Below the pieces are notes generated by a model, which was not told the DNA's origin, did not search any database, and saw only the letters and a program-made list of their open reading frames with translations. DNA of 63,621 nt, filler included, from Collodictyon triciliatum (taxonomy: Eukaryota): NCBI GenBank assembly GCA_043381765.1. It is 4 parts of 4 records of this genome, joined end to end, with 100 filler letters (N's around TTAATTAATTAA, not from the genome) between each part and the next. Parts side by side here need not be neighbours in the genome. Positions count along the whole stretch, not along the records: positions 51,813 to 60,480 come from JBHJMP010000136.1; 3 more parts are not named here. The stretch is one strand, 5' to 3'. Below, in pieces: positions 15,379 to 62,496 of the stretch (position 1 is its first letter; every line of letters starts with the position of its first letter). The position numbers and the translations under genes are program-made.

Positions 15379-18300
15379 ATGTTCCTCAAGATCAACCAGT
15401 TGCCTATTCCCCAGCGTATGGTTCTTTTTTTCTTCATTTGACTCAAACTGTACCACAGTTTATTCATTTATGACTTCTCTGCACTCCTTACGCTTGTAGA
15501 AATAATCTTAAAGCCACACGTGGTTTTGTGCTTTATACTCTACTTTGAAAATTCATTACATTACTACGCTGGTTTATATATTAAATTGAGCTCAATAACC
15601 TTCACACTCTCCAATTATCAGAAGATGAAACAGAAAAAAAAAAGAAAGGAAATACATAATTGTACTTTAATTTTTTATGTGTATAATGTGATATTCTTTT
15701 TATTCGATTAAAGTAAAATTTTGTTGAAGATTGAGGAAGTAGAGAATCGAGTTGTTTGACTTACCCTAGACTTGCTTTCCTGACAGACTCGGAGATTTGC
15801 ACGTCTGTTGGATGGACACAATCAAACGAATGCTTTTCATGTGGAGATGATGGGCGAATTCTTCGCTGGAACATGGCTGGAGAATTTATTGGTGAACTCA
15901 TAAAGTTAGAAACTGCATTCACATCGGTTCAGTTCTTTAACGCAAAGCAACGACAGACTTCTCTCAATGACATCTTTATAGCAGCTTGCACTGATGGTAT
16001 GTCGTATGACTTATCGATACATATTTTTACACACTTTTCTTTGGAAGTATTCGAATGTGCTTAAATAGCGAATCGATGTAATGTGTTACTACGAGATATT
16101 ATCGAATGCCCTATCGGTTAGATTAAATGAGCTCTCTTCGTGTCATTCAGGAAATGTGAGGCTTCTCACCATTGGTGGTCGCTTGGAAAAACAAGTGGAG
16201 GCCCATCGTGGGGCTGTTCTGGCAATCAAATGGTCTGGTGATGGAACATCTTTTGTCAGTGGCGGTGAAGATGGGTTTATCAAGACATGGTCGAAAGCCG
16301 GAATGCTTCGTTCTCAAATATTTCAATCTTGTAATACTTACTCTGATAGATTTCTACAATATGCTGCCATATAATCAACTGAATTTTTTTATCTCAATTA
16401 ATGTATAAATCCGTCTGTGTATATTAGCAAATCCGGTTTATGCTCTTTGTTGGAGCCCTACCAACGATGCCATCTTATTTACCTCGGGAAAAGAGCTGTG
16501 TATAAAGCCTCTTCAATCGACATCAAAAACAATCCAATGGAAAGCACACGATGGATTGGTATTGAAAGTCGATTGGAATCCCATCAATAACCTTATATTA
16601 AGCTGCGGAGAAGATCGAAAATACAAGGTTATTTCAAAATACCACAAGTCATGTAATTATGATTCATTCCCAACTCTCGCGATGAATCAAATGAGACCTC
16701 ATTTTACAATAAAATCAATCTAATAACTTCACTTTGTATTCCCTTGCCATTACCTCCTATAGATTTGGGATCCATTCGGAAGGCTTCTATTCCAGAGCCA
16801 GCAGGCTGAAAATGTCGTTACTTCGGTCTCATGGTCTCCCGATGGTGAGCTCTTTGCTGTCGGCTCCTACAACACACTTCGAGTCTGCGATAAAGCAGGG
16901 GTATTGCACTGTCTTAAAAGCATCTCCTAGTCTCCACCCGCAATCCACTAACTCACATTTACTCGACTTTATTTTATCCGAAGTCCTTTTCTTTCTTAAC
17001 TATATACTTACTTTTCTCAGTATACACGGGTTTTTGTATGCGAGATTACCCTCTGTCACCATCACCTCTTCTTTTCATATATACGAACCCCGTGAATAGC
17101 CCGAATCAAATCCAAACGGTGAAATTCTAAATCTTGTCGTCGTTATTTCTGTTCTAGTGGACATATTCTCGCATCAAATCAGAAACAGGAAGTATTTTTG
17201 ACATCGCGTGGACATCCGACGGCACACAATTCTCTGGTGGCGGTGGGAACGGTTCTGTGGCATTTGGACACATGACTGGATGGTAAGTTTTTATTCAGCT
17301 GATATGTGCTAATCGCATTCTGTTTTCTCATGACATTTAGAGTGTGTACTACCACTTTATTACTATCCGGCACCAAACAATACATTCTACTCGTCCCTCG
17401 TCGGTATTTTTTTTTTATTTACAAATATTCAGGAGACTAGAGACAAATTCGCTCAGCTTGACAATCGAAGACTACAATAAAATATCTGTAAGGGACGTCC
17501 AATCTGATGGTGTTGAGTACCTGGATTTTAAAGACCGCATCATCAAGACATCTCTTGGGTATGGGCATCTTGTCGTGGCCACTTCAACCCAGGTAAGTTT
17601 TCCTATATCGCAACGATACCATCACCTTTCGCATACAATGCAGTTAAGCAACCGACTTTAACCAATTTAGAAGTCAAAGGTGTTTTTTTCTCTCCTTTCT
17701 TTCCATTTCCGAACATAATTTTAAATTAATTCATATAACCTTCGTCTAACCGTTGTGCTATCCTTATATTACTTTTAGGTCGTCATCTACACCACCGATA
17801 ACTGGAATACACCTCAGATATTCGACATCAAGGATATTATCAACTTGATTAAACAATGCGAGAAGTATACAGAGCCATCTACTTCTCTAAACAATTACTT
17901 TATCTAACATCATTTTTAAATCCGCCATTCCTTCTGCTCTCGCTGAAGGCTTTTTTTTCCAAAAAAAAAAAGACAATTAAAAGTCAAACTGTAATTACTA
18001 CTGTCAAAACTAATAAATACAATCCCTTATTCTCTCCACTTTTTTTCCCCATCTTCTCGTTTCTTTATCGTACCAGGTACTTCCTCACCGTTGATAACTT
18101 GAATGGAATTCAAGTATACACATATGACGGTCGCGTCGTGTGCAATCCGAAAGCTCCTAATCTCCGCATTGACAACTTAAATACACAGCTGATATCCATG
18201 TGCAACGACGCCATCGCCGTCATCGACCGCACAGACCCAAAAAGTAATTATCTATTGCATAACAAATTTATCAAACTTATTCGTACCTGGAAAGATTCTT

Positions 18301-20254
18301 TTATCAATTGGCATGCTCAATTTAATTCTAGGCCGACTCCAATATTCTCATATGTTGATACATACCAATTCAATCTCATACTTACCGCGCATTCTGCAGA
18401 TGTTCTCCTCTTTGACACGGCAACAGGCCGGCAAATGGCTGTGTCGATCAAGCACAGCATCGAAATATCAGAGTTATATCTTGAACAAAGTGGAATCGCA
18501 TCCGAAAGGAAGTTGGCCATTATTGACCGGAATCGCGAGCTGCATGTGACGTCTATTTCAAAGGTACATCAAATTCAATGAACTACCCATATCGAAACAA
18601 GAGATGTATAGGAAACACACATTCTCTTATCACTATATATCAACTCTATATTACTTCCCTATTCTCGGTGCTGTACACTTCTTTTATTTTTATTTTTTTT
18701 TTTAAAAAAAAAACAAAAAACAAAGCAAACACAGTCTCGTACATAATAATATGCTTACCCTAACTCAATACCAATACATAAGCCTAACCTCGTCAAGATT
18801 GGGGCCATGGTTAGCTCTGTGATTTGGCACGATTCGAGCAGCATGCTAGTTGCCCTTATGGATCAAAAGTTCATTGTTTTTCACTATCCCCACATCGTCT
18901 ATGTCGACCGCGACCTGCTCAACTCTACCAAGTTAATCCGCGATGCGGTGTAAGTCCGTTTGCAACAGAGCCATTCAAAGAGCACCGCACATCGCATTAT
19001 TCCTGGCGCACACCCAAACTCCTTCGACATTCTGCAGCTCCAGTCCACATTCAAAGCTTTTGTCTTCTCGTTCCGCTGTTTGCAACCTTCCTTTCGCATG
19101 TAAATGCCTTTTTAATCACGGGAATAACATGCAGGGAGTTCGGGGCAAACCCGCAGCTCGTCAGCTTCAACGGCACACAAGTGACCATCCGCAGAAATGA
19201 CGGGGCACTCCTGACGACCACCGTATCTCCTTATCCTCAACTCCTCTATGAAAAGTGCGGCAAGCAGGACTGGAACCAGGCTGTCATCCTATGTCGCTAC
19301 GTCAAGGTACCGGCCAAACTTTTGACAGTCATGAGAAGGAAAAAAGAAACGTACTGAAACCTTGCCGCTCTATCCACCACAACTTGCACAGGACCCGATT
19401 CTGTGGGCCACGCTTGCTGCCATGGCCATCAACGGGAAGCATCTTCCAACAGCCGAGGTTGCGCTCGCATCCATAGACGAGGTTCGTGGGCGTGTTTTTG
19501 CCTCTGCTCTTTTACTATATATTGAAAAATTAGAAGGAAAGAAGAATCTCTTTCATGCACCTCGCTAGCCGATCAGCCCGCATCTGAAAACCCCCCTTGT
19601 GCTTGGCGCGAGTGCAGGTCGAGAAGCTGCAGTTTATCCTGTGGGTATCCGGGCTGCCGCGCGAGGACATGAGAACAGCCATGATCCACATGTACAGACG
19701 CAACTTTGACGAGGCAGAGGCGGTCTTGATTCAGAGCCAGCTCTACTACCGCGCAATCAAGATGCGGATTCGCTGCTTCGACTGGGACAGGTTTTTTTTT
19801 TCCCTCTCTGTAGTCATGCATGCAGCTCGGCTGATGCCAAGGCGACTCTCTCCAAACAAACAAACAAACAAACAAACAAACAAACAAACAAACAAACAAA
19901 CAAACAAACAAACAAACAAACAAACAACTTACAGACTTGCATTAGGGCCTTCGACATAGCCGTGAAGCACAAAACACACGTGGACACAGTCTTGTACTAC
20001 CGCCAGAAATACCTTGCGTCTGTCTCCAAGGCCGAGACCAACCGCCGCTTCATCCAGTACGCACAAGGAGTGAGTCTCATGCAGCCTAATCCACACCATT
20101 TTCTTTTCCCGACCACGCTTCTCTCGCGTCTGCCTGGCATGACCATTGATGCATATGCGCTTCAACACCCATGCCGCAGGTCACTATCGACGAGGCAACA
20201 ATTCGGGCCAAAATAGCGGAGGAAAAGGTGAAGGAGGGGCGCGGCGCCGAGTAG
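15379..20254 (+). CDS. IFT80: Intraflagellar transport protein 80 (WD40, IFT-B)
   Basis: MFLKINQLPIPQHSEICTSVGW...SCGDDGRILRWN, EKQVEAHRGAVLAIKWSGDG...GGEDG, WKAHDGLVLKVDWNPINNLILSCGED, DFKDRIIKTSLGYGHLVVATSTQ, WNTPQIFD, RRNDGAL, AVKHKTHVDTVLYYRQKYL. Colinear with known IFT80; all introns GT-AG. Confidence 0.97.
19854..19928. repeat. (AAAC)n microsatellite in IFT80 intron
   Basis: Directly visible. Confidence 0.95.
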
Positions 20255-20538
20255 ACTGCAGCCCACTTACGCGCACCGAACCCCTCAGCCGCAGCAGACA
20301 TACAAGCAAATAAAGAGAAAGGCAAATGGACACGCTTTGAGAGTAGTGCGCTGGAAGTGAGGTTGCTTTGATTCGTTGTCTATTTAGGGGACAAACAGCC
20401 AGCAGGCATTGTAAGTATTGGGAAACCGAGACAGGAGAAGGATGGAGAGTGGGCTAAAAGAACATGGTGTGTATGAACAGGCCGCAGCATTTTGGCCGAG
20501 GAGACGGAGGAGGACAGGGAGCGAAGGAAGAGGGAGGT

Positions 20539-25608
<5,070 letters not shown>

Positions 25609-31370: not shown

Positions 31371-31470
31371 NNNNNNNNNNNNNNNNNNNNNNNNNNNNNN
31401 NNNNNNNNNNNNNNTTAATTAATTAANNNNNNNNNNNNNNNNNNNNNNNNNNNNNNNNNNNNNNNNNNNN
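31371..31470. other. Artificial assembly spacer N44-TTAATTAATTAA-N44
   Basis: Exactly 100 nt with stops in all six frames; identical to two other blocks; the flanking genes are truncated. Confidence 0.95.
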
Positions 31471-51712: not shown

Positions 51713-51812
51713 NNNNNNNNNNNNNNNNNNNNNNNNNNNNNNNNNNNNNNNNNNNNTTAATTAATTAANNNNNNNNNNNNNNNNNNNNNNNNNNNNNNNN
51801 NNNNNNNNNNNN
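51713..51812. other. Artificial assembly spacer N44-TTAATTAATTAA-N44
   Basis: Same 100-nt block. Confidence 0.95.
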
Positions 51813-51975: not shown

Positions 51976-52094
51976 ACACAGCAACGAGTAAATTGCTCGT
52001 AATACGCTCCCGAAGCTGCCGCTCAGAAATCGCACAAGATTAGTGCAGTTGGTGTAAAGCGCATCAGACTCTGATCAAGCTTGGTTGTGTAGGA

Positions 52095-52420
52095 ATGGCT
52101 CTTCTAGGCCGAGGACTTGCGTTATTCGTGAGCACTGATCTTATCATGCACGTCCAGTCGGACTGTCATTTATACATATACACATATATCAATATATAAT
52201 GTCACTTTTGTTGGGGGATGTATATGCAAAGCTTTGTACAATCGCCCACGAAAAGCATATGACATTAGACCGCCTTGGGGATCGGCACTTACACCGCATA
52301 CAGCAGCGTGCAACAAGAATTCGAAAACGCCTTTCTTCCTTTTCGCGAAAGTGTGTCGTGTTTCATGGACAAACACTAATTCGATTCTTACCATCATAGT
52401 GTTTTCTCTCTTTCATCCTT

Positions 52421-52466
<46 letters not shown>

Positions 52467-55400
52467 TTCTTCAAATTCACATTTATTCACATTTTTTATA
52501 CCCTGAAATATCACATGTAAGAAACTCTGCAAATTGATGTGACATTTCCCATATATCTTGAGAATCATATAGGTTAATGCATATCTATATAAATAGAAAT
52601 CAAGGATGTCACTACTTTCTTTGGGTCGATAAAGGTCCCTGACAAGAAGAAGTATTTTTTCCCATTAAATATAAACAAATATTTATTACTGGACATATCA
52701 AGCGGCTCCAATTCAGGCAGTGCTCATGTTATTATATAAAGAGAACATTAGTTCGATATAGCTCACTTCCTATTATTTACCTGAGGATTTATGAAATGTT
52801 GCAGAGCCGTAGGATATCGCGGAAATCTCCCAGATGAAAGCGTTCCCAGTGATGAAGAAATAGAAGTGAAGCGAGACCCCAGCTTTGAAAATGATATGGA
52901 GGTTATACATCCTTAAAGTTTGCTATCAGACCTGATTTTTGTTGCCGAAGCATATCTCCTTTTTTTTTTTTTTTAATATATATAACTTCTGCATCGTCTT
53001 ATTATCCTATTAGAAAGACTAAATAATTTAAATGCGATTAAACGTGAATGCAATCAACAGAGAAGTAAAATAAATATGGAAAAGAAAATGGAGCAACTCC
53101 GAAAGGAGCGTGAGGAAATTGAAAGAAGGTATTAATATGATTCCAGTACTTTGTATGTTTTCTCTAATGCTAATTGAAAGAAATACATTAATAATGGTGA
53201 TAATATTGTATTAAAAAAGACGCTCTATTCCATCCATGATCAATAAATATCACATTTATTCAAATAATATAATCTTATCCTTTAGCATCAAAGCGCTACA
53301 GCAAACTGAAAGAGATGGGCATACAAATTCAGGAAAATCCTCTATTGTCGAGCTTTACTCTCGCTTGCTCGATACTCTTAATTCACCAGATTTGAAACTT
53401 CACTCCCAGGACATAATGCCCCGAATTGTAATCCCCCAAATAAATTGTTTGCTTCCTTTTCTCTCCAATTCAATCCTTAGATCTCTCTCTAAAATGTGTA
53501 ATGGGTGTATTTTTTTAATTAAAAAAACCGATGATGTATTATTGTTGACTCGCCTCAAAAGGTTGTTGTTGGTGATCAAAGTGCAGGAAAAACAAGTGTT
53601 CTTGAAATGTTCGCCGAAGTAAATGATTAGCATCCCAACAATTTTTTATATAAAAATTAATATATTTCTTCGATAATTTGCTTCTTTATCATTTCCTTAT
53701 ACACTTATTCTATATCGAATACATGCCTTTATTTTTTTTTTGAAATGTACTCCGCATGGAACCGCTGTTTATAGAGTAGATCAGAACAATCGTAGACACC
53801 ATAGTTATGTATTGTATTTTCTTTATCCATGAGTACTGATAGTCAGTTTTGCAGGCGCGTATATTTCCACGAGGGTCTGGTGAAATGATGACAAGGTCCC
53901 CGATACAAGTATGGAGTCACTGACTTTTTTTTTCTCCCTCCACCTCTCGTTTTTTTTTTCTTTTAATGTATATCTTAGATTGCTTTAGTAATGATAGAGT
54001 ATATTTTGATCTAACTTAATTCCTGAACCCAAGGTAACATTGACTGGAGGCGACGAGCGTATTGCGCATTTCAAGGATGAGAAGCATGTTTACAGACTCG
54101 ACAACGAAGAGGATTTGGCGAAGCTGAGATTTGACATCGAATCGAAGATGAAAGATAGCATAAAAAAGGGTTTAGACTATTCCTATTTCGGGACAGGAGT
54201 AGACTCAAGAAGCATACAATATGTCATTCTATTCCGCATTTCTTACATCGAAATACATACCTCGATTGAATAATAGTGTTTCTAATACTGAGTAAAATGC
54301 AGGAGAAACTGTGAGTGATAGGGTGATATCACTGACTGTAAGAGGATCAAAGCACCGAATAGTTCTAGTAGATTTGCCTGTAATGATTTTTCTCACTTTT
54401 GGTCTATCAATTTAATACTAATTTTGGAGATCCTACTGATGAAGTTTTAACTCTTAGGGAGTGATTGGAAGTGTGACTGCAGGAATGTCCCCTACCACCA
54501 AAGGAGACATATTTAGAATGAGCAGGTATGGTTTTTGTGTGTGTCTTTTATTATCTTTCTTTTTCCATGTTCAATTTTCATCATGATTTCTTCTAGATTT
54601 TCAAAAAAAAAAAAAGGGAAGAAGATGAAAAAAATAGCTTCAAGATTTTATTCTATACTTTATACCAGGTCTTTTATCAATAACCCAAACGCTATTATTC
54701 TCTGCATACAAGATGGATCTGTAGATGCAGAAAGGTTTTGTCGATATTTTCCTACGATCGCCTTTACAGTTTAATGTTTAATTACTTGCCTCTTATCTAG
54801 ATATTCCCTATTTGTTCATTTTTGATAAAACATATACCAAAATAATACATTTCGTAATACTCCAGGAGCAATATAACAGATTTGGTCAATGAAGCGGATC
54901 CTAAAGGTTTGAATCTGATTTACTCAAGAAATCTACACTTTCATAAATTCTATATTACATGGACTTTAAAGAATAAAAATACATACAAACATAGGCGAAC
55001 GAACTATATTTGTTCTCACAAAAGTGGATTTAGGTTTCACCCATACTCATTTATTTTGATGTAGAAGAAATCAGCATAACATTACATTTTCCCCATCTAC
55101 TTTGTTTTGTAATAAAGATAATCACAGTAGCAGTAAAACGTCAATTATATATAAATAATAAATGAGCAAGTAATTTTTTCTTTCCATTTTTATGATAATT
55201 CCAGCTGAGAAAGCAATCCGAGCAGATAGAATTAAGCAAATATTGGACGGGAAACTTTTCGGAATGAAGGCATTAGGATATTTTGCTGTGGTATTATTAA
55301 TATTATCTTGTATACAATCTAAGTACTTTTTATCAAGCGCATATCCTACATGAAGGTGAAGAACATGCTAATTTTTGTTTTAAAAATTAATCAGGAATCA

Positions 55401-56098
55401 ATTGATTAATTTCATAACATCGCTGATTGATAATACGCCCTACATTAGCCGACATAGTGTTAATAATCACAATACATATAATTGGGATCCATAGATTACC
55501 GGGACAGGGAATTCTTCAGACACGATTTCTTCTATTAGAAAATATGAACATGAGTATTTCAAAACATCATCGCTGGTCAAGTGAGGCAACCGTCAAAACA
55601 TATCGCCCAATTTATCAACCAATTTGTTTTCTTTTACTCAAAACAACATCGGATTGCTTATGTATCTTTATGTGCTTAGTAACAAGGTTTTAAGTTCTTC
55701 ACAAGTGTCCATGGATAGACTTTCGGAAGCAATTACAAAGGCATTTAAGCTTGTTTTAATTTTTGGTTAAAAAAGGACCGAGGAAATCGAGAGCATCTTA
55801 TATAAAAATTATTTATGTAATAATGGTCGAAACATTCATCAATTATTGGATGTAGATATTTTGGCTGCAAGTTCGTCGAAGCACTGGCTTACAGTTAGCT
55901 GCCATTACTAGAGAACTCTTAAAATGTGAAAAAGAATATGCCTTAATGTTTGGAAATCGAGTTCTCTCTCGGGTAAGTTGAAATGCAGTTTTATCAAAAT
56001 ATTTGCTAATATATTGCTTTTTGAACCCTAATAGAGTACTACTCTTTTATTGCAGAGTCTACATTCACAAAAAAAAAAAAAAAAAAAAAAAATAGTGT

Positions 56099-56166
<68 letters not shown>

Positions 56167-59100
56167 ATATCTTAGATTGCTTTAGTAATGATAGAGTATA
56201 TTTTGATCTAACTTAATTCCTGAACCCAAGGTATCTTTGTNNNNNNNNNNNNNNNNNNNNNNNNNNNNNNNNNNNNNNNNNNNNNNNNNNNNNNNNNNNN
56301 NNNNNNNNNNNNNNNNNNNNNNNNNNNNNNNNNNNNNNNNTTTATAAAAATATTTGCTTAAATTTTGCTTTTTGAACCCCAAAAAAAAAAAAATCTTTTA
56401 TTGCAGAGTCTACATTCACAAAAAAAAAAAAAAAATCGATTGAATTTAGGATGATGCATTTGGTATCTCGAGGACCGCCATCTTATCAAAAATCCACTCA
56501 TCAGAGGCTCTAAAAGCTGCCTACAAGTATGCTAGCTTCTTTTTTTATTTTTCCTTTTAATTGTTGCTGTTGTTGCTGTTGTTGCTTGTGTATATCATGT
56601 TTGTACATATTTTTAATTATGACAATTAAGATTAAGACTATAATTCTTTGAATGAAATTAATGGAAAAGGATTATGATTATGATTATATACCCAAATCTA
56701 TGTTAATTATTGGCGCCATTGTAAAATATTTCGCTTGTATCGCACCTTATATTGCATCCACGTCCGGAATAAATGAAAAGGGAGAAAGTTTTCTCAAATA
56801 AGATGTGGAATGCAATTTCGAAGCAATTCTTGGAGGAATTCTATTTACAATCATTTATTGAAGCAGGTTTATAGATTCGTATACATATCGTCTGGGACGA
56901 TAAAAAGATTTTTTCCCCTTTATTCGATTCAAAGAACAATCATTAAATGATAAAAAGCTTACGCTGAATAATGCACACCTTTAACATACTTACCATTTAC
57001 AATAGATACGTACAAGGAATTTCTGGTATCTATGGAAAGTAAGCTGTCAAGTTGGCCACAGGTTGTTTACTGATTTTCATTTTATTTCTCGGGTATTTTA
57101 TAGCGAAAATGATTATACCCTATTGAAATCTGATTACACAGGATGGATTGACTGACACCAGCATGGATGTTGGAAAACAGGCTCTTCTAGAGAGTCTTCA
57201 AGACTTGCCACTAGTGAATATCAATACATAAATCAGTCAATTGCTACTTTGGCAGTTGTAAAAGAATAAAACATACCCCATATCGTTTTGATTTTAGGAT
57301 AAATCAGACTTTCCCGATGGACAGTCCCCAACTGAGGCTCTTTGGCAAAATGTGTTTTCCAAAGTCAAAGGAACATTGAAGTGGCCTCCTCGAACCCGGG
57401 ACAGCTTGGTAATAAATATGCATCATACCGAAATATTATACTTTCATTTTTTCTTAGGGGGATACCTCTATTTTTTCTTCACTCGGGGGGGGGGGGGGGG
57501 GGGGGCAGCAACGAAAAATTATAAATAAAAAGTTTTAAGACACACAACTCAAGCCTCAAGCAANNNNNNNNNNNNNNNNNNNNNNNNNNNNNNNNNNNNN
57601 NNNNNNNNNNNNNNNNNNNNNNNNNNNNNNNNNNNNNNNNNNNNNNNNNNNNNNNNNNNNNNNTTAATTTCATGCTGGGTCCGCAAAATACACCTTCTGC
57701 CAATGTCACGGGAGGAGAAAGTGGAAGAGTGTGTCTCCAACGAAATAAATCAGGCAATCGATATTGAGATCTAAACCAAGACACCATACGCATTATATAG
57801 CTGTCCATTCAAACATCTATGATGAAGGAAGATATCATATCGAAGTTTGATTGGGATGAGGGAATATCATTTATGCAAGGTTATCCCTCCATATTCTTTG
57901 TTCATTTTGACATTGTATTATTCGTCACATATAGTATTGTTGTATATATTGCCTTTTTAAACTTGGAGAAAAAGAAGAAAAAAGCCGAATCAAGAGGTAT
58001 TACCTCAAAATAGTGATATACGTTAACATTTTTCACAGCTAAGATAGTGGAGCACATCAGAAGACTGAAGGCAGAAAATCGAGCCAGTTTTTCTCCGTAT
58101 TAAATCAAATCGTATTTCCTTCCTTTTTGTTGAGAATAACATATAAATCAAATAATTTATTCTATTCCATTTTTTATCACAAGGTCTTGGGGACAAAAAA
58201 TTAGAAAGCAAGAATACACAAGTCTTGAGCAGGATGTCAACTCGTTGTTACTACAGAGTAGTCAGAATCTCATGAAGAAGGAGGTGATGGAGGAATCAAT
58301 TTATTCCCCTTTGCACAAATTTTCCTGTTTTCTTTCACACTGAATATGATAATTAGAAAGGGGATTTCATAAGGCCCGAGAGCAAAAGTATCTAATAGTG
58401 ATGTACTTTTATATCCTTTTCAGGGAATTAATGTAAAGCTTGAACCTTCTGAACTCGCTTTACTAAAAAAGTCGATTAGGATCAAATATGGAATGGATGT
58501 TTCTGATGAACAGGTGTTTATAACCTATCTTGGTGATTTATTATTATGATTTCATAATAGACTTTGGTCTGCATAGCAATATTCGTATGCATATGATACA
58601 ATCATAAGAAAGTTGGAAAAGAAGTCGAGCCCCTTATCCAGATCGATTTGATCACTTATATAACCTCTGCAGGTCATTAAGGTATTTAAATATGCACAAA
58701 AACTGGAATTTCTTCGATTATCTGCAAAATCAGCGAAGCATTGCTCCAACGCATATAGCAAGGATTCCATTCAGAAAAAAGGCAAGCGCCGAGTATACAC
58801 AAACTAAAACAAATTAATACAAATCACCTCCCCATCTGAAACCATTAAATATACTCAACGAACGGGCGAATCTCTGAACATCGGTATGTATATAACTCTA
58901 TTCTTTTTGGTGTTTGAGTAGCCCCAAATCACCTGGAATGTCAAGATGTTGTCCTCTTTCTGCGTGTTTATCGCGCCATGAATGCAACCGAAAAGGCATT
59001 CCGTGTCAAAATGTTTGATTTGAAAGGTTTCATTTAATCTTTATCTGGCTTATATACAGCTTTACCTAATCCCTTTTTTTTTCTTTATCTTATTGCCTTT

Positions 59101-59331
59101 ATTTCTTTGAATCGAATGAAGGGGGGGGGGGGGGGGGGGAAGGGAAAAAAAAAAAAACAAAAAAGAGAAAAAGAGGGGTGCTTGTCTACGCATACATTCT
59201 TATGCTGTTTTCCCTGATTTACTCTTTNNNNNNNNNNNNNNNNNNNNNNNNNNNNNNNNNNNNNNNNNNNNNNNNNNNNNNNNNNNNNNNNNNNNNNNNN
59301 NNNNNNNNNNNNNNNNNNNNNNNNNNNTTTT

Positions 59332-59376
<45 letters not shown>

Positions 59377-59956
59377 TGTGGGAGGGGGGGGGGGGGGGGG
59401 GGGGGGGGAAAGAACTTATTGCCTTTGTTTAGAATGACAACTGTCCTACAAACTGTTTACTTAATTTCACAATGCGCACCCAAATATTCGCAGATATTTT
59501 TGATCGAGGTGTCCGTTTGGCGTTGGATAAAGTCGAAGGTAATTGCATCTACAAGCCAAACTTCATCACACGCTAAGTGTTTCTAATATATATGTTTGTA
59601 TTTGGATTACTGAAAGAGACGTATTTCAATCTTTTATAGCCAACCCGAACGAAAAGAAGACTTTGATGCAATGTGAGCGCGTGAATATGGGTGAAAATAT
59701 TCGCCTTCTTCGATCCGTGAAACAGCAATTAAATGGTTCGCATTTAGCGGAGATAATAATGTTTTTTTTTCCTCCTCCTTTTTATAGCCCTATGCAATAC
59801 ATTACCTCTATAATTGGTTAAGAGAAGCAGTATATGATTGAATCCTCATTCTGCTTTGTTTTGTTCATACTATCTTCAAATCTTATCTAAGTGGTTATTG
59901 CACGATACGATTCCTTAGATTTCATCGAGGAATTAAAAAAGGATAAGAGCATGTAA
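52095..59956 (+). CDS. OPA1: OPA1-type mitochondrial inner-membrane dynamin GTPase (~30 exons; 5' start uncertain)
   Basis: KSSIVELYSRLLD...[79 protein letters not shown].TDLV...[58 protein letters not shown]. Nearly colinear with human OPA1 as recalled. Confidence 0.93.
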
Positions 59957-60427
59957 GCTGGTTGGCTTCTCACTGCATCTGCTTTTCACAATCCATCTCA
60001 CGTATCGTGCGTTAAAGGGGATAGAAGGAGAATAAAAAAAAATCATAAATAAACTATCTAAATAATGGGAGGCTTGAAACCAGCCATGACATAAAAGCGA
60101 GCACACCTTGATTTATTTTTCAAGTATAATGATTCTTTCTACTCAGCAATCTTAATTGCCTCACCCCTTTTCCTTTCTTTTTCATCGGCCTTTCATATTT
60201 CTCAGTTTCCATTGCCAAGGTTTCAACATGAAATCACTTACCTCATGAGAAATATATTGCCGAGCATATTTTGGAAAGGTTGGGTTGAAATAAGAGAATT
60301 AAAACGAAACAAAAAGAAGAATATATAGTTTCCATATTAGATTATTTCACGACACATTTCTAATGCTGTATTTTAGTTCATGCATTCTTTTATCTCGCGA
60401 CAAACAACAATTTTTTTCTTTTGAGCT

Positions 60428-62496
60428 TTAATCCTTAGCGAAGTAAGTCCGGCCTCTACAAGCTGCGATTCGGATGATGANNNNNNNNNNNNNNNNNNNN
60501 NNNNNNNNNNNNNNNNNNNNNNNNTTAATTAATTAANNNNNNNNNNNNNNNNNNNNNNNNNNNNNNNNNNNNNNNNNNNNTTGAATTCGTCCGACGTTCA
60601 AATAATATGAGAATGAAAAGTATGGATATGGATTTAAATGTATTTTATGGTTTTGTGTGTCTAGTATATTTCAGACAAGGGACCTACGATGTTGATGATT
60701 GCGAACCAATCGTCCAAGGAACTAGATTCGCTTGGGATGATGGCCACCAAACCAGGGAAGAGGGATAATGTGATTCCGAATGAAGAAAAGACAAGTGCAG
60801 CAGTTTTCCATACCTTCTCAAAGACGACCCAGTAAGGTATTTTCAATTCTCGAAAACTTTCCTGACCTTGAAAATGAAATTATCAGTATGTGGCGACATC
60901 GTGTCGTAAACGAAGTGATTGTGATAAAAATGATTGAATATAGAAAAAATTAAGATTACTAGGAGATATCAAAAGCGCAGTTGATTCGTTGATATTGTAG
61001 CTGTTAATTGATTGGCGGGATATCCTAGAGGAATGGTTGCTTTTTTCTTTATACTGTGTACATTTCATCAAGTTAATAAGCAGATAGAGTGCCTTTTGGT
61101 CTAATACGAAAATTTATACATTTATTTAAAAAGACTAATCTTACGCCCAAGGTGGGTGTCGGAATAGAGATGGTAGCCCTCCCAAGCCCAACTTGAATAA
61201 ACTGCATTCCGATCAGAATACGGTAACCTTTTATTAGAAATTTAGAGTCAAAAAATAGGAAAGTATAGATTTTTGAAGACAAGTGACTCTGGCTAAGAAG
61301 CGTACCAAGAATGCACAAGAAGAGTGCGAATGCGGCGATGGAAAAGTATATGACAGAACTCAGCCGCAGGTCTAAAGAAAGCATCGATTGAAAGTTCGTT
61401 TATCATAATAGGTTTAAAGGTGAGATTTAGGAATGTTATTTAGATACAGCAGATTTCATTTGAGATAATCATAGAATCATACGCCACTTACCATCCGACA
61501 AAGCCAGCTTAGTGGTAATACGGAGTAAAGCGATTAAAATGCCTACGAAGCCGCATCCTGTTTCAAATAGTTTTTTTTAAAAAAAAAATTCCGATACAAC
61601 TCACGAAATAGAGAAAACCAAGAATGAAGAGAATTAGATGAAGTTTTCAGAAACCTCATTTGATTCTAGGGGAAAGAAAAAATTCCCCAGTGAATTTTAC
61701 ATCCAATTAAAATAGTGGTGTTTCTTGTTTACCAGTCATTACAGCCTGCGTGTAGATTGGAGGGAACGCCCCAAGTAGAGCAAATACACTTCCAAATACA
61801 ACGTTAGTCGAGACACCTGTAATTTATTTTTTGTAATAGAATAATCAATATGAACAGAATAGCTTGATTAGTGATATTGACTCATTAACATCTTGAGTGC
61901 TCACCAATCACAAAAACGCCTAACAAAACGATAACCAGCTTGATGTTTGTATCCAAAGGCATGTACGAAGCCACAGGAATCAGAACCAAAGCACCAAGTG
62001 CGATTGCATAGGACCATACAATCAACATGTCATAGGGCAGAGTTCGAGAGGAACGCACGCGGCTGATTGTGTACAACAAGGGAAGTGCACTTATATTATA
62101 AACCAGGGCAAAGGTGAAGCTGACTTCTGCGTCCGGATACTCATCATTGAAAAAGTCGATGGCGGTGATGATTGCATTCCATGGCGCTAGAATCCCGGTT
62201 CCAAGGAGGAGAAATATCCAATAGGCCCAACGTTCCTGGAAAGAAAAGAATCTATCAATGGACTCTGGGTAAATAAGGAAGTAATGAACACTCAAGCACA
62301 GATGTAACGAAGGAAATATTCGGATGTAATTTACAAAGCGAATGGAGTTAATAGTTTGTCAGAGAAGCAAGTTACTCTTATACTTTAATATTTGAAGAGA
62401 GGGATGAAGAGGAGAAATAATGAAGTGACAGACTTCTTTAGATGATTTCTCCGTGGATATTGGTAGAACTTGAGTGGTTGATTCACGGCCAGTCAT
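60428..62496 (-). CDS. Equilibrative nucleoside transporter (SLC29/ENT family); part of 3' half missing at spacer 60481-60580
   Basis: AYWIFLLLGTGILAPWNAIITAIDFF, GSVFALLGAFPPIYTQAVMTGCGFVG, SSVIYFSIA, FGITLSLFPG, DDWF. A candidate C-terminal fragment IIRIAACRGRTYFAKD* lies at 60428-60480. Confidence 0.9.
60481..60580. other. Artificial assembly spacer N44-TTAATTAATTAA-N44
   Basis: Same 100-nt block; interrupts the ENT gene. Confidence 0.95.

What the first reader, a model, noticed from the sequence alone, without database searches (positions are those of the whole stretch)
52095..59956. Full animal-type OPA1 in an apparently non-animal flagellate genome
Seen: the spliced protein tracks human OPA1 closely through the GTPase domain ([49 protein letters not shown]). 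It stays colinear through the stalk, paddle and GED ([36 protein letters not shown]). These are OPA1-specific signatures rather than Mgm1, Drp1 or generic dynamin ones. Established: OPA1 proper is mainly known from animals and their close relatives, and fungi use Mgm1. Inference: the host looks protistan (compact short-intron genes, protist-like hypothetical proteins). About 30 host-style introns argue against contamination or recent transfer. If the host lies outside Holozoa, this would push back the origin of OPA1-type inner-membrane fusion and cristae shaping.
Basis: partly seen in the sequence, partly recalled or inferred. Interest (0 to 1): 0.78.

Follow-up and report, generated by a model that had tools for sequence, protein, structure and literature searches.

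The report
OPA1 gene of a diphyllatean flagellate
This is a complete, expressed, intron-rich gene for the mitochondrial membrane-shaping GTPase OPA1 whose nearest relative comes from the free-living flagellate Diphylleia rather than from animals, but OPA1 in that protist group was already reported from transcriptomes in 2023, so it confirms and extends a known result.

Summary
At 52095-59956 (+) I reconstructed a 32-exon, 31-intron gene for an 828-aa protein. RNA contigs of runs X1/X5 show 15 of the 31 splice junctions and two poly(A) ends. The spliced protein aligns end to end with holozoan OPA1 (36-39% identity, E about 1e-160). It is 62.9% identical over its full length to one of two OPA1 paralogues of Diphylleia rotans, a CRuMs flagellate. 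In an ML tree it pairs with that paralogue (100/100) and lies outside a 100/100 animal clade. So the bearer is very probably a diphyllatean flagellate, not an animal.

Two corrections. OPA1 in two CRuMs representatives, and the vertical-versus-transfer question, are already in print (Sheikh et al. 2023, PMC10280142). The gene also sits alone on an 8.7-kb piece joined to its "neighbours" by artificial stop-codon linkers, so IFT80, BBS5 and POLA2 are not linked markers.

New here:
- A genomic locus for a CRuMs OPA1.
- Six introns shared in position and phase with an anthozoan-like OPA1 gene (chance expectation 0.27).
- This paralogue lacks a presequence and the Trp-rich paddle loop.

The parts
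52095..59956 (+). OPA1-type gene, start codon to stop codon: 32 exons, 31 introns, 828 aa
   Evidence: Gene model. Junction solver. RNA joints. blastp.
52095..52127 (+). Exon 1: start Met plus the first residues of the N-terminal membrane anchor
   Evidence: Donor shown by X1 joint 52127>52269. The homologous Met starts Diphylleia P0122.
52269..52350 (+). Exon 2: rest of the Gly-rich hydrophobic anchor
   Evidence: Acceptor shown by RNA joint. Donor predicted by homology plus GT-AG.
52597..52651 (+). Exon 3
   Evidence: Predicted.
52805..52901 (+). Exon 4: the acceptor is the least certain border of the model
   Evidence: Best of 18 frame-compatible GT/GC..AG pairs; no RNA support.
53061..53128 (+). 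Exon 5: coiled-coil region
   Evidence: Predicted.
53286..53427 (+). Exon 6
   Evidence: Predicted. DNA contigs of metagenome run X2 cover 53099-53403 at 99%+.
53562..53618 (+). Exon 7: G1/P-loop GDQSAGKTS
53855..53908 (+). Exon 8: switch I / G2 (GEMMTRSP)
54034..54169 (+). Exon 9
   Evidence: Hits human OPA1 residues 327-374 only.
54303..54379 (+). Exon 10: G3 DLPG
54458..54525 (+). Exon 11
54669..54734 (+). Exon 12 ([18 protein letters not shown])
   Evidence: The open frame around it retrieved 3020 dynamin/OPA1 proteins.
54866..54906 (+). Exon 13
54995..55033 (+). Exon 14: G4 TKVD
55205..55290 (+). Exon 15
55495..55580 (+). Exon 16
   Evidence: Donor shown by RNA joint. The X1 contig runs 82 nt into intron 15.
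55680..55740 (+). Exon 17, followed by a GC-AG intron
   Evidence: RNA joints on both sides (shift +2)..
55856..55972 (+). Exon 18
   Evidence: RNA piece 55854-55971.
56450..56526 (+). Exon 19
   Evidence: Donor shown by RNA joint. The acceptor is inferred from the arithmetic of X1 record 1.
56781..56866 (+). Exon 20: start of the OPA1_C region
   Evidence: RNA joints. Weak OPA1_C hit at profile positions 1-25, E 0.087.
57006..57061 (+). Exon 21
   Evidence: RNA joints.
57142..57213 (+). Exon 22
   Evidence: Acceptor shown by RNA joint. Donor predicted; intron 22 (57214-57297) is retained in the X1 contig.
57298..57408 (+). Exon 23 (WPPRTRDSL)
   Evidence: Donor shown by RNA joint.
57801..57879 (+). 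Exon 24 (WDEGISFMQ)
   Evidence: RNA joints.
58039..58096 (+). Exon 25
   Evidence: RNA joints.
58184..58283 (+). Exon 26: aligns to the paddle membrane-insertion loop, with only one Trp kept
   Evidence: RNA joints. Alignment.
58424..58513 (+). Exon 27
   Evidence: RNA joints.
58673..58781 (+). Exon 28, followed by a GC-AG intron
   Evidence: RNA joints (shift +2).
58922..59026 (+). Exon 29 ([13 protein letters not shown])
   Evidence: RNA joints in X1 and X5. OPA1_C profile positions 256-283, E 6e-5. Human OPA1 residues 871-897, E 0.5.
59494..59538 (+). Exon 30
   Evidence: RNA joints in X1 and X5.
59640..59735 (+). Exon 31
   Evidence: RNA joints in X1 and X5.
59919..59956 (+). Exon 32, coding part and stop ([12 protein letters not shown])
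59957..60096 (+). 3' UTR with two poly(A) addition sites, near 60019 and near 60096
   Evidence: Untemplated A-runs at the contig ends of X5 and X1. Genomic sequence checked.
51713..51812 (.). Artificial linker (N44, 12-nt six-frame stop spacer, N44) bounding the OPA1 piece on the left
60481..60580 (.). Artificial linker bounding the OPA1 piece on the right

Best explanation
The stretch is a functional nuclear gene for an OPA1-family dynamin-related GTPase. It belongs to a free-living freshwater flagellate of the Diphyllatea (collodictyonids; CRuMs supergroup), related to but distinct from Diphylleia rotans.

Shown:
- The reading frame is intact.
- It is transcribed, spliced and polyadenylated.
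- It keeps the G1-G4 GTPase motifs and is colinear with OPA1 through BSE, stalk, paddle and C-terminal helix.
- It is the orthologue of Diphylleia paralogue 'A', one of two OPA1 paralogues in that species. The duplication therefore predates the split of the two organisms.

Inferred:
- The protein sits in a mitochondrial membrane through its N-terminal Gly-rich hydrophobic segment, which aligns with the OPA1 transmembrane helix.
- It uses GTP-driven self-assembly of stalk and paddle to remodel or fuse the inner membrane and shape cristae, as OPA1 does.
- Because it lacks a long presequence and the Trp-rich membrane-insertion loop, its import route and lipid contact probably differ from animal OPA1. 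The more canonical B-type paralogue may carry the core role.

[quoted passage not shown] The alternative is an ancient DNA-level transfer between a holozoan and a CRuMs lineage (about 35%).
For: Gene and expression:
- Open 828-aa CDS from 32 exons.
- 15 of 31 introns are seen spliced in RNA contigs, with two untemplated poly(A) ends.

Family:
- Exon 9 hits only human OPA1 in the PDB.
- The spliced protein aligns with coral, Capsaspora and Pigoraptor OPA1 over residues ~90-826 at 37-39% identity, E 1e-163 to 1e-166.
- Exon 29 hits Pfam OPA1_C at E 6e-5.
- The 62.9%-identical orthologue P0122 scores OPA1_C at 6e-42 and Dynamin_N at 2e-36.
- P0122 matches human OPA1 at 4e-133 over its full length, against Mgm1 at 2e-27 in the GTPase domain only.

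Bearer:
- The best hit, P0122/P0013, is EukProt EP00002 Diphylleia rotans.
- Careful ML tree (23 rows, 952 columns, LG+C20+F+G4): window + Diphylleia A 100/100; + Diphylleia B 100/100; animals form a 100/100 clade excluding them. The 40-row quick tree has the same topology.
- DNA pieces 99%+ identical occur in a subsurface and a freshwater metagenome run.

Origin:
- 6 of 17 resolved introns of an anthozoan-like OPA1 gene (L043) coincide in position and phase with window introns 8, 13, 16, 18, 23 and 27. Chance expectation is 0.27, Poisson P 4e-7.
- A single CRuMs group (window, Diphylleia A and B, Rigifila) is not rejected (AU p 0.134).

Motifs and N-terminus: alignment.
Against: - The bearer's identity rests on this gene alone. 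The gene is on an 8.7-kb piece with no other recognisable gene, joined to the rest of the window by artificial linkers.
- An independent marker from the same window was uninformative. The IFT80 open frame had no hit above 56% identity, and only 1 of the 10 top hits I looked up carried an organism name (Spironema).
- GC3 of OPA1 (0.40) is lower than that of the IFT80 (0.60) and BBS5 (0.52) pieces, so one common source is not shown.
- In the free ML tree Rigifila OPA1 sits with unicellular holozoans (93/89), not with the diphyllatean clade. This fits at least one transfer or a long-branch artefact.
- The trees have no outgroup (no Mgm1, MidX or Drp1 sequences were obtainable), so the root is unknown.
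- Shared introns are also expected under transfer of genomic DNA.
- Mitochondrial targeting is not shown. Only 8 residues precede the anchor, and no targeting predictor was available.
- Exons 2-15 lack RNA support, and the acceptor of exon 4 is uncertain.
Confidence: 0.8

Rival explanations
1. The piece comes from an animal or another holozoan, either as host or as a contaminant of the assembly. It would then be an ordinary OPA1 of a lineage known to have it.
For: - The GTPase-core motifs are identical to animal OPA1.
- The piece is not linked to any other gene.
- Intron density resembles that of the anthozoan-like locus L043, and 6 intron positions are shared with it.
Against: - Identity to every holozoan OPA1 stored is at most 39%, against 62.9% to Diphylleia A.
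- Animals form a 100/100 clade that excludes the window protein. The window + Diphylleia A + B clade is separated from all 20 other rows by a 100/100 branch.
- Sheikh et al. report no evidence of holozoan contamination in the CRuMs transcriptomes (PMC10280142, passage).
Confidence: 0.05
2. The gene is genuinely diphyllatean, but OPA1 entered CRuMs by one or more ancient horizontal transfers of genomic DNA from a holozoan. Its presence would then say nothing about OPA1 in the CRuMs + Amorphea ancestor.
For: - Distribution is patchy: Sheikh et al. found Opa1 only in Holozoa and two CRuMs representatives (passages).
- Rigifila OPA1 groups with filasterean and ichthyosporean sequences (93/89) rather than with the diphyllatean clade. 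Sheikh et al. saw the same non-monophyly.
- Shared introns are compatible with DNA-level transfer.
Against: - The diphyllatean clade lies outside the branch uniting all 19 holozoan or unlabelled rows and Rigifila (100/100), not nested in a holozoan subgroup.
- CRuMs monophyly costs only 4.46 lnL and is not rejected (AU p 0.134).
- The gene had time to duplicate and diverge to 41% identity before the window lineage split from Diphylleia.
- 25 of the 31 introns are not among the 6 exact matches with L043.
Confidence: 0.35
3. The window's A-type paralogue is neofunctionalised. It would act at another membrane or in another topology than canonical inner-membrane OPA1, while the B-type paralogue does the OPA1 job.
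For: - The A-type proteins (window, Diphylleia A) start 8 residues before the hydrophobic anchor. Diphylleia B and the holozoans that have a complete N-terminus carry long Arg/Ser-rich N-terminal extensions.
- The A-type loop aligned to the paddle membrane-insertion loop keeps one Trp (window) or none (Diphylleia A). Diphylleia B, Rigifila, Capsaspora and the animals keep two or three.
- The A-type stem branch is long, 1.84 substitutions per site.
Against: - All other domains, and the anchor itself, are colinear with OPA1.
- No localisation data exist.
- A missing 5' exon or an alternative start cannot be excluded from the window; RNA contig cover begins only around 52105.
- The identity of the loop rests partly on my recall of the human motif.
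Confidence: 0.15

Closest known systems
Diphylleia rotans OPA1 paralogue A (EukProt EP00002_Diphylleia_rotans_P023506/P023507; P0122/P0013)
   Same: 62.9% identity over the whole length (1-825 against 1-833). Same start Met, same short N-terminus, same domain order. Sister in the tree at 100/100.
   Different: It comes from a different organism or gene copy; 37% of residues differ. It is known only as a transcript, whereas the window gives the exon-intron structure.
Human/animal OPA1 (PDB 8ct1, 8eew, 6jtg; Pfam PF00350 + PF19434)
   Same: G1-G4 motifs. Colinear BSE, stalk, paddle and C-terminal helix. Gly-rich transmembrane segment. Six intron positions shared with an anthozoan-like OPA1 gene.
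   Different: Only 35-38% identical overall. About 130-190 residues shorter at the N-terminus, with no long presequence. The Trp-rich membrane-insertion loop is not conserved. Conservation of the S1/S2 processing sites was not assessed.
Opa1 of CRuMs as reported by Sheikh et al. 2023 (PMC10280142)
   Same: Same phenomenon: Opa1 outside Opisthokonta, in CRuMs. The Diphylleia and Rigifila proteins I retrieved are probably the two representatives meant, but the main text does not name them.
   Different: That report rests on transcriptome assemblies. Here there is a genomic locus with 31 introns, and a further diphyllatean sequence.
Fungal Mgm1 (PDB 6jsj, 6ql4)
   Same: Dynamin-type GTPase domain. 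Presumed analogous role at the inner membrane.
   Different: The orthologue P0122 matches Mgm1 only in the GTPase domain (E 2e-27 and 2e-25), no better than dynamin-1 or Vps1, against 4e-133 over the full length for OPA1.
MidX
   Same: A mitochondrial dynamin-related protein with a patchy protist distribution (PMC10280142, abstract and passages).
   Different: Per that paper MidX acts from the matrix side and has a different tertiary structure. No MidX sequence was available to me, so nothing was tested here.

Membership tests
OPA1 (dynamin-related GTPase, Pfam PF00350 + PF19434) | Dynamin-type GTPase domain with G1 (GxxxxGKS/T), G2 Thr, G3 (DxxG) and G4 (T/NKxD) | tested here: met
   The spliced protein has [17 protein letters not shown], DLPG and TKVD, aligned with the same motifs in 9 other OPA1 proteins. 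Dynamin_N scores E 2e-36 on the orthologue P0122.
OPA1 (dynamin-related GTPase, Pfam PF00350 + PF19434) | OPA1-specific C-terminal region (stalk, paddle, GED helix; Pfam OPA1_C) | tested here: met
   On the window directly: exon 29 hits OPA1_C positions 256-283 at E 6e-5 (23 bits, just under the 25-bit cut-off), and exon 20 hits positions 1-25 at E 0.087. The other 9 C-terminal exons tested gave no hit on their own. The spliced protein aligns through residue 826 with holozoan OPA1. The orthologue P0122 scores OPA1_C positions 1-344 of 345 at E 6e-42.
OPA1 (dynamin-related GTPase, Pfam PF00350 + PF19434) | Closer to OPA1 than to Mgm1, MidX, Drp1, Vps1 or Mx | tested here: inconclusive
   Met by score. 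For P0122, OPA1 gives E 4e-133 over the full length, while Mgm1, dynamin, Vps1, Drp1 and Mx give E 1e-16 to 2e-27 in the GTPase domain only. Window exon 9 hits OPA1 only. No rooted superfamily tree could be built, because no Mgm1, MidX or Drp1 sequences were obtainable. MidX was not compared at all.
OPA1 (dynamin-related GTPase, Pfam PF00350 + PF19434) | N-terminal mitochondrial presequence followed by a transmembrane anchor (review PMC11885689, passage) | tested here: not met
   The anchor is present and aligns with the animal transmembrane segment. Only 8 residues, with one Arg, precede it in the window and in Diphylleia A. An upstream in-frame stop lies at 52041-52043. An undetected 5' exon is not excluded.
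OPA1 (dynamin-related GTPase, Pfam PF00350 + PF19434) | Membrane-insertion loop in the paddle that binds cardiolipin (review PMC11885689; the human motif itself is recalled) | tested here: not met
   The aligned segment keeps one Trp and three basic residues in the window and no Trp in Diphylleia A. The other 8 aligned OPA1s keep two or three Trp.
OPA1 (dynamin-related GTPase, Pfam PF00350 + PF19434) | Inner-membrane/intermembrane-space location, processing into long and short forms, fusion and crista-shaping activity | not testable with these tools
   This needs localisation, protease-site mapping and functional assays.
Mgm1 | Full-length similarity to fungal Mgm1, including its stalk and paddle | tested here: not met
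   P0122 matches yeast and Chaetomium Mgm1 only in GTPase-domain residues 159-470, with scores equal to those for dynamin-1 or Vps1.

The most novel reading that the evidence does not exclude
[quoted passage not shown] Diphyllateans then duplicated it. The window's A-type copy, having lost the presequence and the Trp-rich insertion loop, works in a different topology or membrane than canonical OPA1. One possibility is a signal-anchored fusion GTPase in a lineage without opisthokont-type mitofusins.
Probability: 0.12. Interest if true: 0.8.

Novelty: new member of a known kind. Interest (0 to 1): 0.4.

Why it matters
Whether OPA1 and Mgm1 are orthologues, and how old inner-membrane fusion by a dynamin is, are open questions. 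The only non-opisthokont OPA1s in print come from two CRuMs transcriptomes (PMC10280142). A 2026 review still calls OPA1/Mgm1 'suggested to be restricted to opisthokonts' (PMC12989075, passage).

This locus adds three things:
- **Genomic proof.** There are 31 spliceosomal introns, which excludes a cDNA-type artefact.
- **Shared ancestry of gene structure.** Intron positions shared with an animal-type gene show that the two gene lineages descend from one intron-bearing gene.
- **A testable contrast.** Diphyllateans keep two divergent OPA1 paralogues, which differ in their N-terminus and paddle loop.

It does not settle vertical descent against transfer.

Tried and rejected
- No genome is held for the window.
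I could not see which CRuMs taxa or paralogues that paper lists, or its Opa1-only tree.
- Rfam gave 0 matches in the window.

**Searches that gave little**
- The protein search with exon 9 found nothing at E <= 0.01 among 13 candidates. That search was wasted because few 5-residue words were shared.
- Single stalk/paddle exons against the PDB: exons 18, 23 and 28 gave no OPA1 hit, and exon 29 gave only E 0.5. Colinearity therefore rests on the spliced protein.
- The sequencing-run search listed no holder on record as RNA. X1 and X5 are labelled 'RNA?' but their contigs are spliced and A-tailed.

**Host placement by IFT80**
- The 242-aa open frame 17853-18578 found 330 proteins at E <= 0.001, none at E <= 1e-30 and none above 56% identity.
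- Of the 10 top hits I looked up, 5 were unnamed JGI metagenome proteins annotated IFT80, 3 were unnamed Logan proteins, 1 was Spironema sp. and 1 was an unnamed EukProt transcript.
- All 26 full-length hits were 28-39% identical across the gene.
- Because of the linkers, IFT80 would not have been a linked marker anyway.

**Metagenome scan**
- An alignment of three CRuMs OPA1s retrieved 55 loci. None is a close relative of the window protein. Most are closest to animal OPA1; a few (such as L016-L018) are closest to unicellular-holozoan or Rigifila OPA1, or ambiguous.
- L043 was useful only as an animal-type gene structure. 3 of its 20 junctions could not be resolved and were left out.

**Phylogeny and literature**
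- The careful tree of the 40-row set did not finish in time, so I report its quick tree and the finished careful tree of a 23-row subset. That subset is the window protein plus 22 proteins picked by me from the 261 stored at that time. It covers the named major groups and drops isoforms, fragments and most arthropods and fishes.
- I looked for GC and intron statistics in the 2026 preprint on diphyllatean draft genomes. Two malformed queries failed and I dropped the question.

Full report
**What is there**

The window is a low-GC eukaryotic draft sequence (0.27-0.53 in 2-kb windows), and no genome is held for it. On the + strand I rebuilt the gene in two steps. I anchored tblastn matches of the closest stored protein. 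I then chose, for every gap, the GT/GC..AG pair that keeps the frame open and best fits that protein.

The product is 828 aa.
- Introns are 78-477 nt (median 141) and 30% GC, against 41% for the CDS. Twenty-nine are GT-AG and two are GC-AG.

**Expression**

One sequencing-run search returned five coded runs, and I laid four of them. X1 and X5 are labelled only 'RNA?', but their contigs skip introns.

- 15 of my 31 introns appear as joints at my borders, within the stated cut ambiguity. These include both GC-AG introns.
- Three of the 15 also appear in X5.
- The contigs end in untemplated A-runs near 60096 (X1) and 60019 (X5).
- Intron 18 is implied by the arithmetic of X1 record 1.
- Intron 22 (84 nt, with in-frame stops) is retained in that contig, and the contig also runs 82 nt into intron 15.
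- Exons 2-15 have no RNA support, and the acceptor of exon 4 is the weakest border.
- X2 (subsurface metagenome) and X3 (freshwater metagenome) hold short DNA contigs that are 99%+ identical and cover exon-intron borders.

**What family**

- Exon 9 alone hits only human OPA1 chains in the PDB (3 of 3 hits).
- A 45-aa open frame around exon 12 retrieved 3020 proteins. Among the 25 stored proteins of at least 450 aa, one stood far above the rest when laid on the window.
- The spliced protein is 62.9% identical over its full length to P0122.
- It is 40.7% identical to P0243, 37-39% to Pigoraptor, Capsaspora and coral OPA1, and about 36% to fish OPA1.
- P0122 carries Pfam OPA1_C (E 6e-42, profile positions 1-344 of 345) and Dynamin_N (E 2e-36).
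- P0122 matches human OPA1 at E 4e-133 over residues 44-833. Yeast and Chaetomium Mgm1, dynamin-1, Vps1, Drp1 and Mx match only its GTPase domain, at E 1e-16 to 2e-27.
- On the window itself, exon 29 hits OPA1_C at E 6e-5 and exon 20 at E 0.087; the other stalk and paddle exons are too short to score alone.
- The alignment shows G1 [9 protein letters not shown], G2 in GEMMTRSP, G3 DLPG and G4 TKVD, and the conserved APNxLxCxDVVLF helix.

So the protein is OPA1-type and not Mgm1-like. MidX could not be compared.

**Whose gene**

Exact look-ups name P0122/P0013 and P0125/P0243 as two different transcripts groups of EukProt EP00002 Diphylleia rotans, and P0156 as Rigifila ramosa. Diphylleia therefore has two OPA1 paralogues, which I call A and B.

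- In the finished careful ML tree (23 rows, 952 columns, LG+C20+F+G4 by PMSF), the window protein pairs with Diphylleia A (100/100) and Diphylleia B joins them (100/100).
- This clade is split from all other rows by a 100/100 branch.
- The 15 animal or animal-like rows form a 100/100 clade.
- Rigifila sits in a poorly resolved group with filastereans and ichthyosporeans (93/89).
- The 40-row quick tree agrees.
- Forcing all four CRuMs rows together costs 4.46 lnL and is not rejected (AU p 0.134).
- No outgroup was available, so the root is unknown.

The simplest reading is that the piece comes from a diphyllatean other than the Diphylleia strain in EukProt. A third paralogue within Diphylleia itself is not excluded.

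**A correction on context**

Three N runs (31371-31470, 51713-51812, 60481-60580) are each N44 + a 12-nt six-frame stop spacer + N44. They are artificial linkers.

- The OPA1 gene therefore sits alone on an 8,668-bp piece.
- The other genes of the window are not shown to be linked to it. By Pfam these are a PH-RasGAP protein, a CD36-family protein, IFT80, a CEP104-like TOG protein, POLA2, NF-YA, an S33 hydrolase, a thioredoxin-domain protein, BBS5, eIF4E and a nucleoside transporter.
- Their GC3 is higher: 0.60 for IFT80 pieces and 0.52 for BBS5 pieces, against 0.40 for OPA1.
- My one whole-library search went to the IFT80 frame and found nothing close.

The bearer's identity therefore rests on OPA1 itself.

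A metagenome scan with three CRuMs OPA1s gave 55 loci, none close to the window protein. Locus L043 carries an OPA1 gene about 75% identical to Nematostella OPA1, with at least 21 exons.

- I resolved 17 of its 20 junctions.
- In the comparable region (Nematostella residues 315-891) the window gene has 22 introns.
- Six coincide with L043 introns in aligned residue and phase: window introns 8, 13, 16, 18, 23 and 27. All six lie in well-conserved blocks.
- One more (window intron 6) is one codon off.
- With the phases taken into account, the chance expectation is 0.27 and the Poisson P for six or more is 4e-7.

The two gene lineages therefore share an intron-bearing ancestor gene. This excludes a cDNA-type origin but not a transfer of genomic DNA.

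**How it probably works**

By homology it is a membrane-anchored, GTP-driven remodeller of a mitochondrial membrane. Two departures from animal OPA1 stand out.

- **No presequence.** The window protein and Diphylleia A begin 8 residues before the Gly-rich hydrophobic segment that aligns with the OPA1 transmembrane helix. Diphylleia B and the holozoans have long Arg/Ser-rich extensions. The in-frame stop at 52041-52043 and the same start Met in the Diphylleia ORF, which its source labels 'complete', speak for a real short N-terminus.
- **Altered paddle loop.** The segment aligned to the paddle membrane-insertion loop keeps one Trp here and none in Diphylleia A. The other eight OPA1s keep two or three. 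The loop's role in cardiolipin binding is taken from the review PMC11885689 (passages); the human motif itself is recalled.

The A-type copy thus looks like the derived paralogue. Its targeting and lipid contact are open.

**What is known**

- Sheikh et al. 2023 (PMC10280142; passages read, supplements closed) report Opa1 in two CRuMs representatives from transcriptome assemblies.
- They find strong monophyly of all Opa1 (BS 99) and no evidence of contamination. The CRuMs sequences are not monophyletic, and the choice between ancestral presence and HGT is unresolved.
- The review PMC11885689 repeats this.
- A 2026 preprint reports draft genomes of Collodictyon triciliatum and Diphylleia rotans and has 0 occurrences of 'OPA1'.
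- Two full-text searches found no paper describing a diphyllatean OPA1 gene structure. One (opa1 + mgm1 + crums) found 4 papers. The other (opa1, diphyll, collodicty; at least 2 terms) found 33 papers, of which 15 were listed.
- A 2026 review still calls OPA1/Mgm1 'suggested to be restricted to opisthokonts' (PMC12989075).

**Verdict**

The gene is real, complete and expressed, and very probably belongs to a non-holozoan. It is a further member of an already published kind. It adds a genomic locus, shared-intron evidence and the A/B paralogue contrast. Interest is moderate.

Noticed in passing
window 31371-31470, 51713-51812, 60481-60580: Each N run is N44 + a 12-nt six-frame stop spacer + N44, an artificial linker. 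The window concatenates at least four separate pieces, so gene order across these points is meaningless.
   Followed up: yes
window 56147-56239 and 56341-56435 (inside intron 18): A 93-nt copy (96%) of the end of intron 8 plus the start of exon 9 (53950-54042) abuts the 100-N gap at 56241-56340. A 95-nt copy (87%) of 55990-56084 follows the gap. This is probably a gap-closing or assembly artefact; the intron is spliced out in RNA.
   Followed up: partly
window 57214-57297 and 55413-55494: Intron 22 is retained, and part of intron 15 is present, in the X1 RNA contig that otherwise shows spliced junctions. This points to pre-mRNA or intron retention.
   Followed up: no
window 55741-55855 and 58782-58921: Two GC-AG introns (17 and 28), both confirmed by RNA joints.
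   Followed up: yes
proteins P0122/P0013 and P0125/P0243 (EukProt Diphylleia rotans): Diphylleia rotans has two OPA1 paralogues only about 41% identical to each other. B has a long presequence-like N-terminus and A does not. I could not check whether this is noted in the supplements of PMC10280142.
   Followed up: partly
loci L032 (773-1917) and L026 (3090-4222): Metagenome contigs with multi-exon OPA1 GTPase domains about equally distant from CRuMs, filasterean and animal OPA1 (about 50% identity). Their intron positions differ from the window's. Possibly unsampled protist OPA1 bearers.
   Followed up: no
window 60194-60480: RNA contigs of X1 and X5 cover the end of the OPA1 piece downstream of the poly(A) sites and run over its end. 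This is probably a neighbouring transcript. No Pfam hit was found for the 60095-60325 frame.
   Followed up: no
window 20000-22000: A GC-rich block (0.53) with long open frames on both strands but no Pfam match. It is flanked by TTTG-type microsatellites that recur at 42.7-43.0 kb and 63.4 kb.
   Followed up: no
run X2, joint 60330>53641: One metagenome contig joins two distant short stretches of the piece through 37 other letters. It is most likely a chance low-complexity match or a chimera.
   Followed up: no
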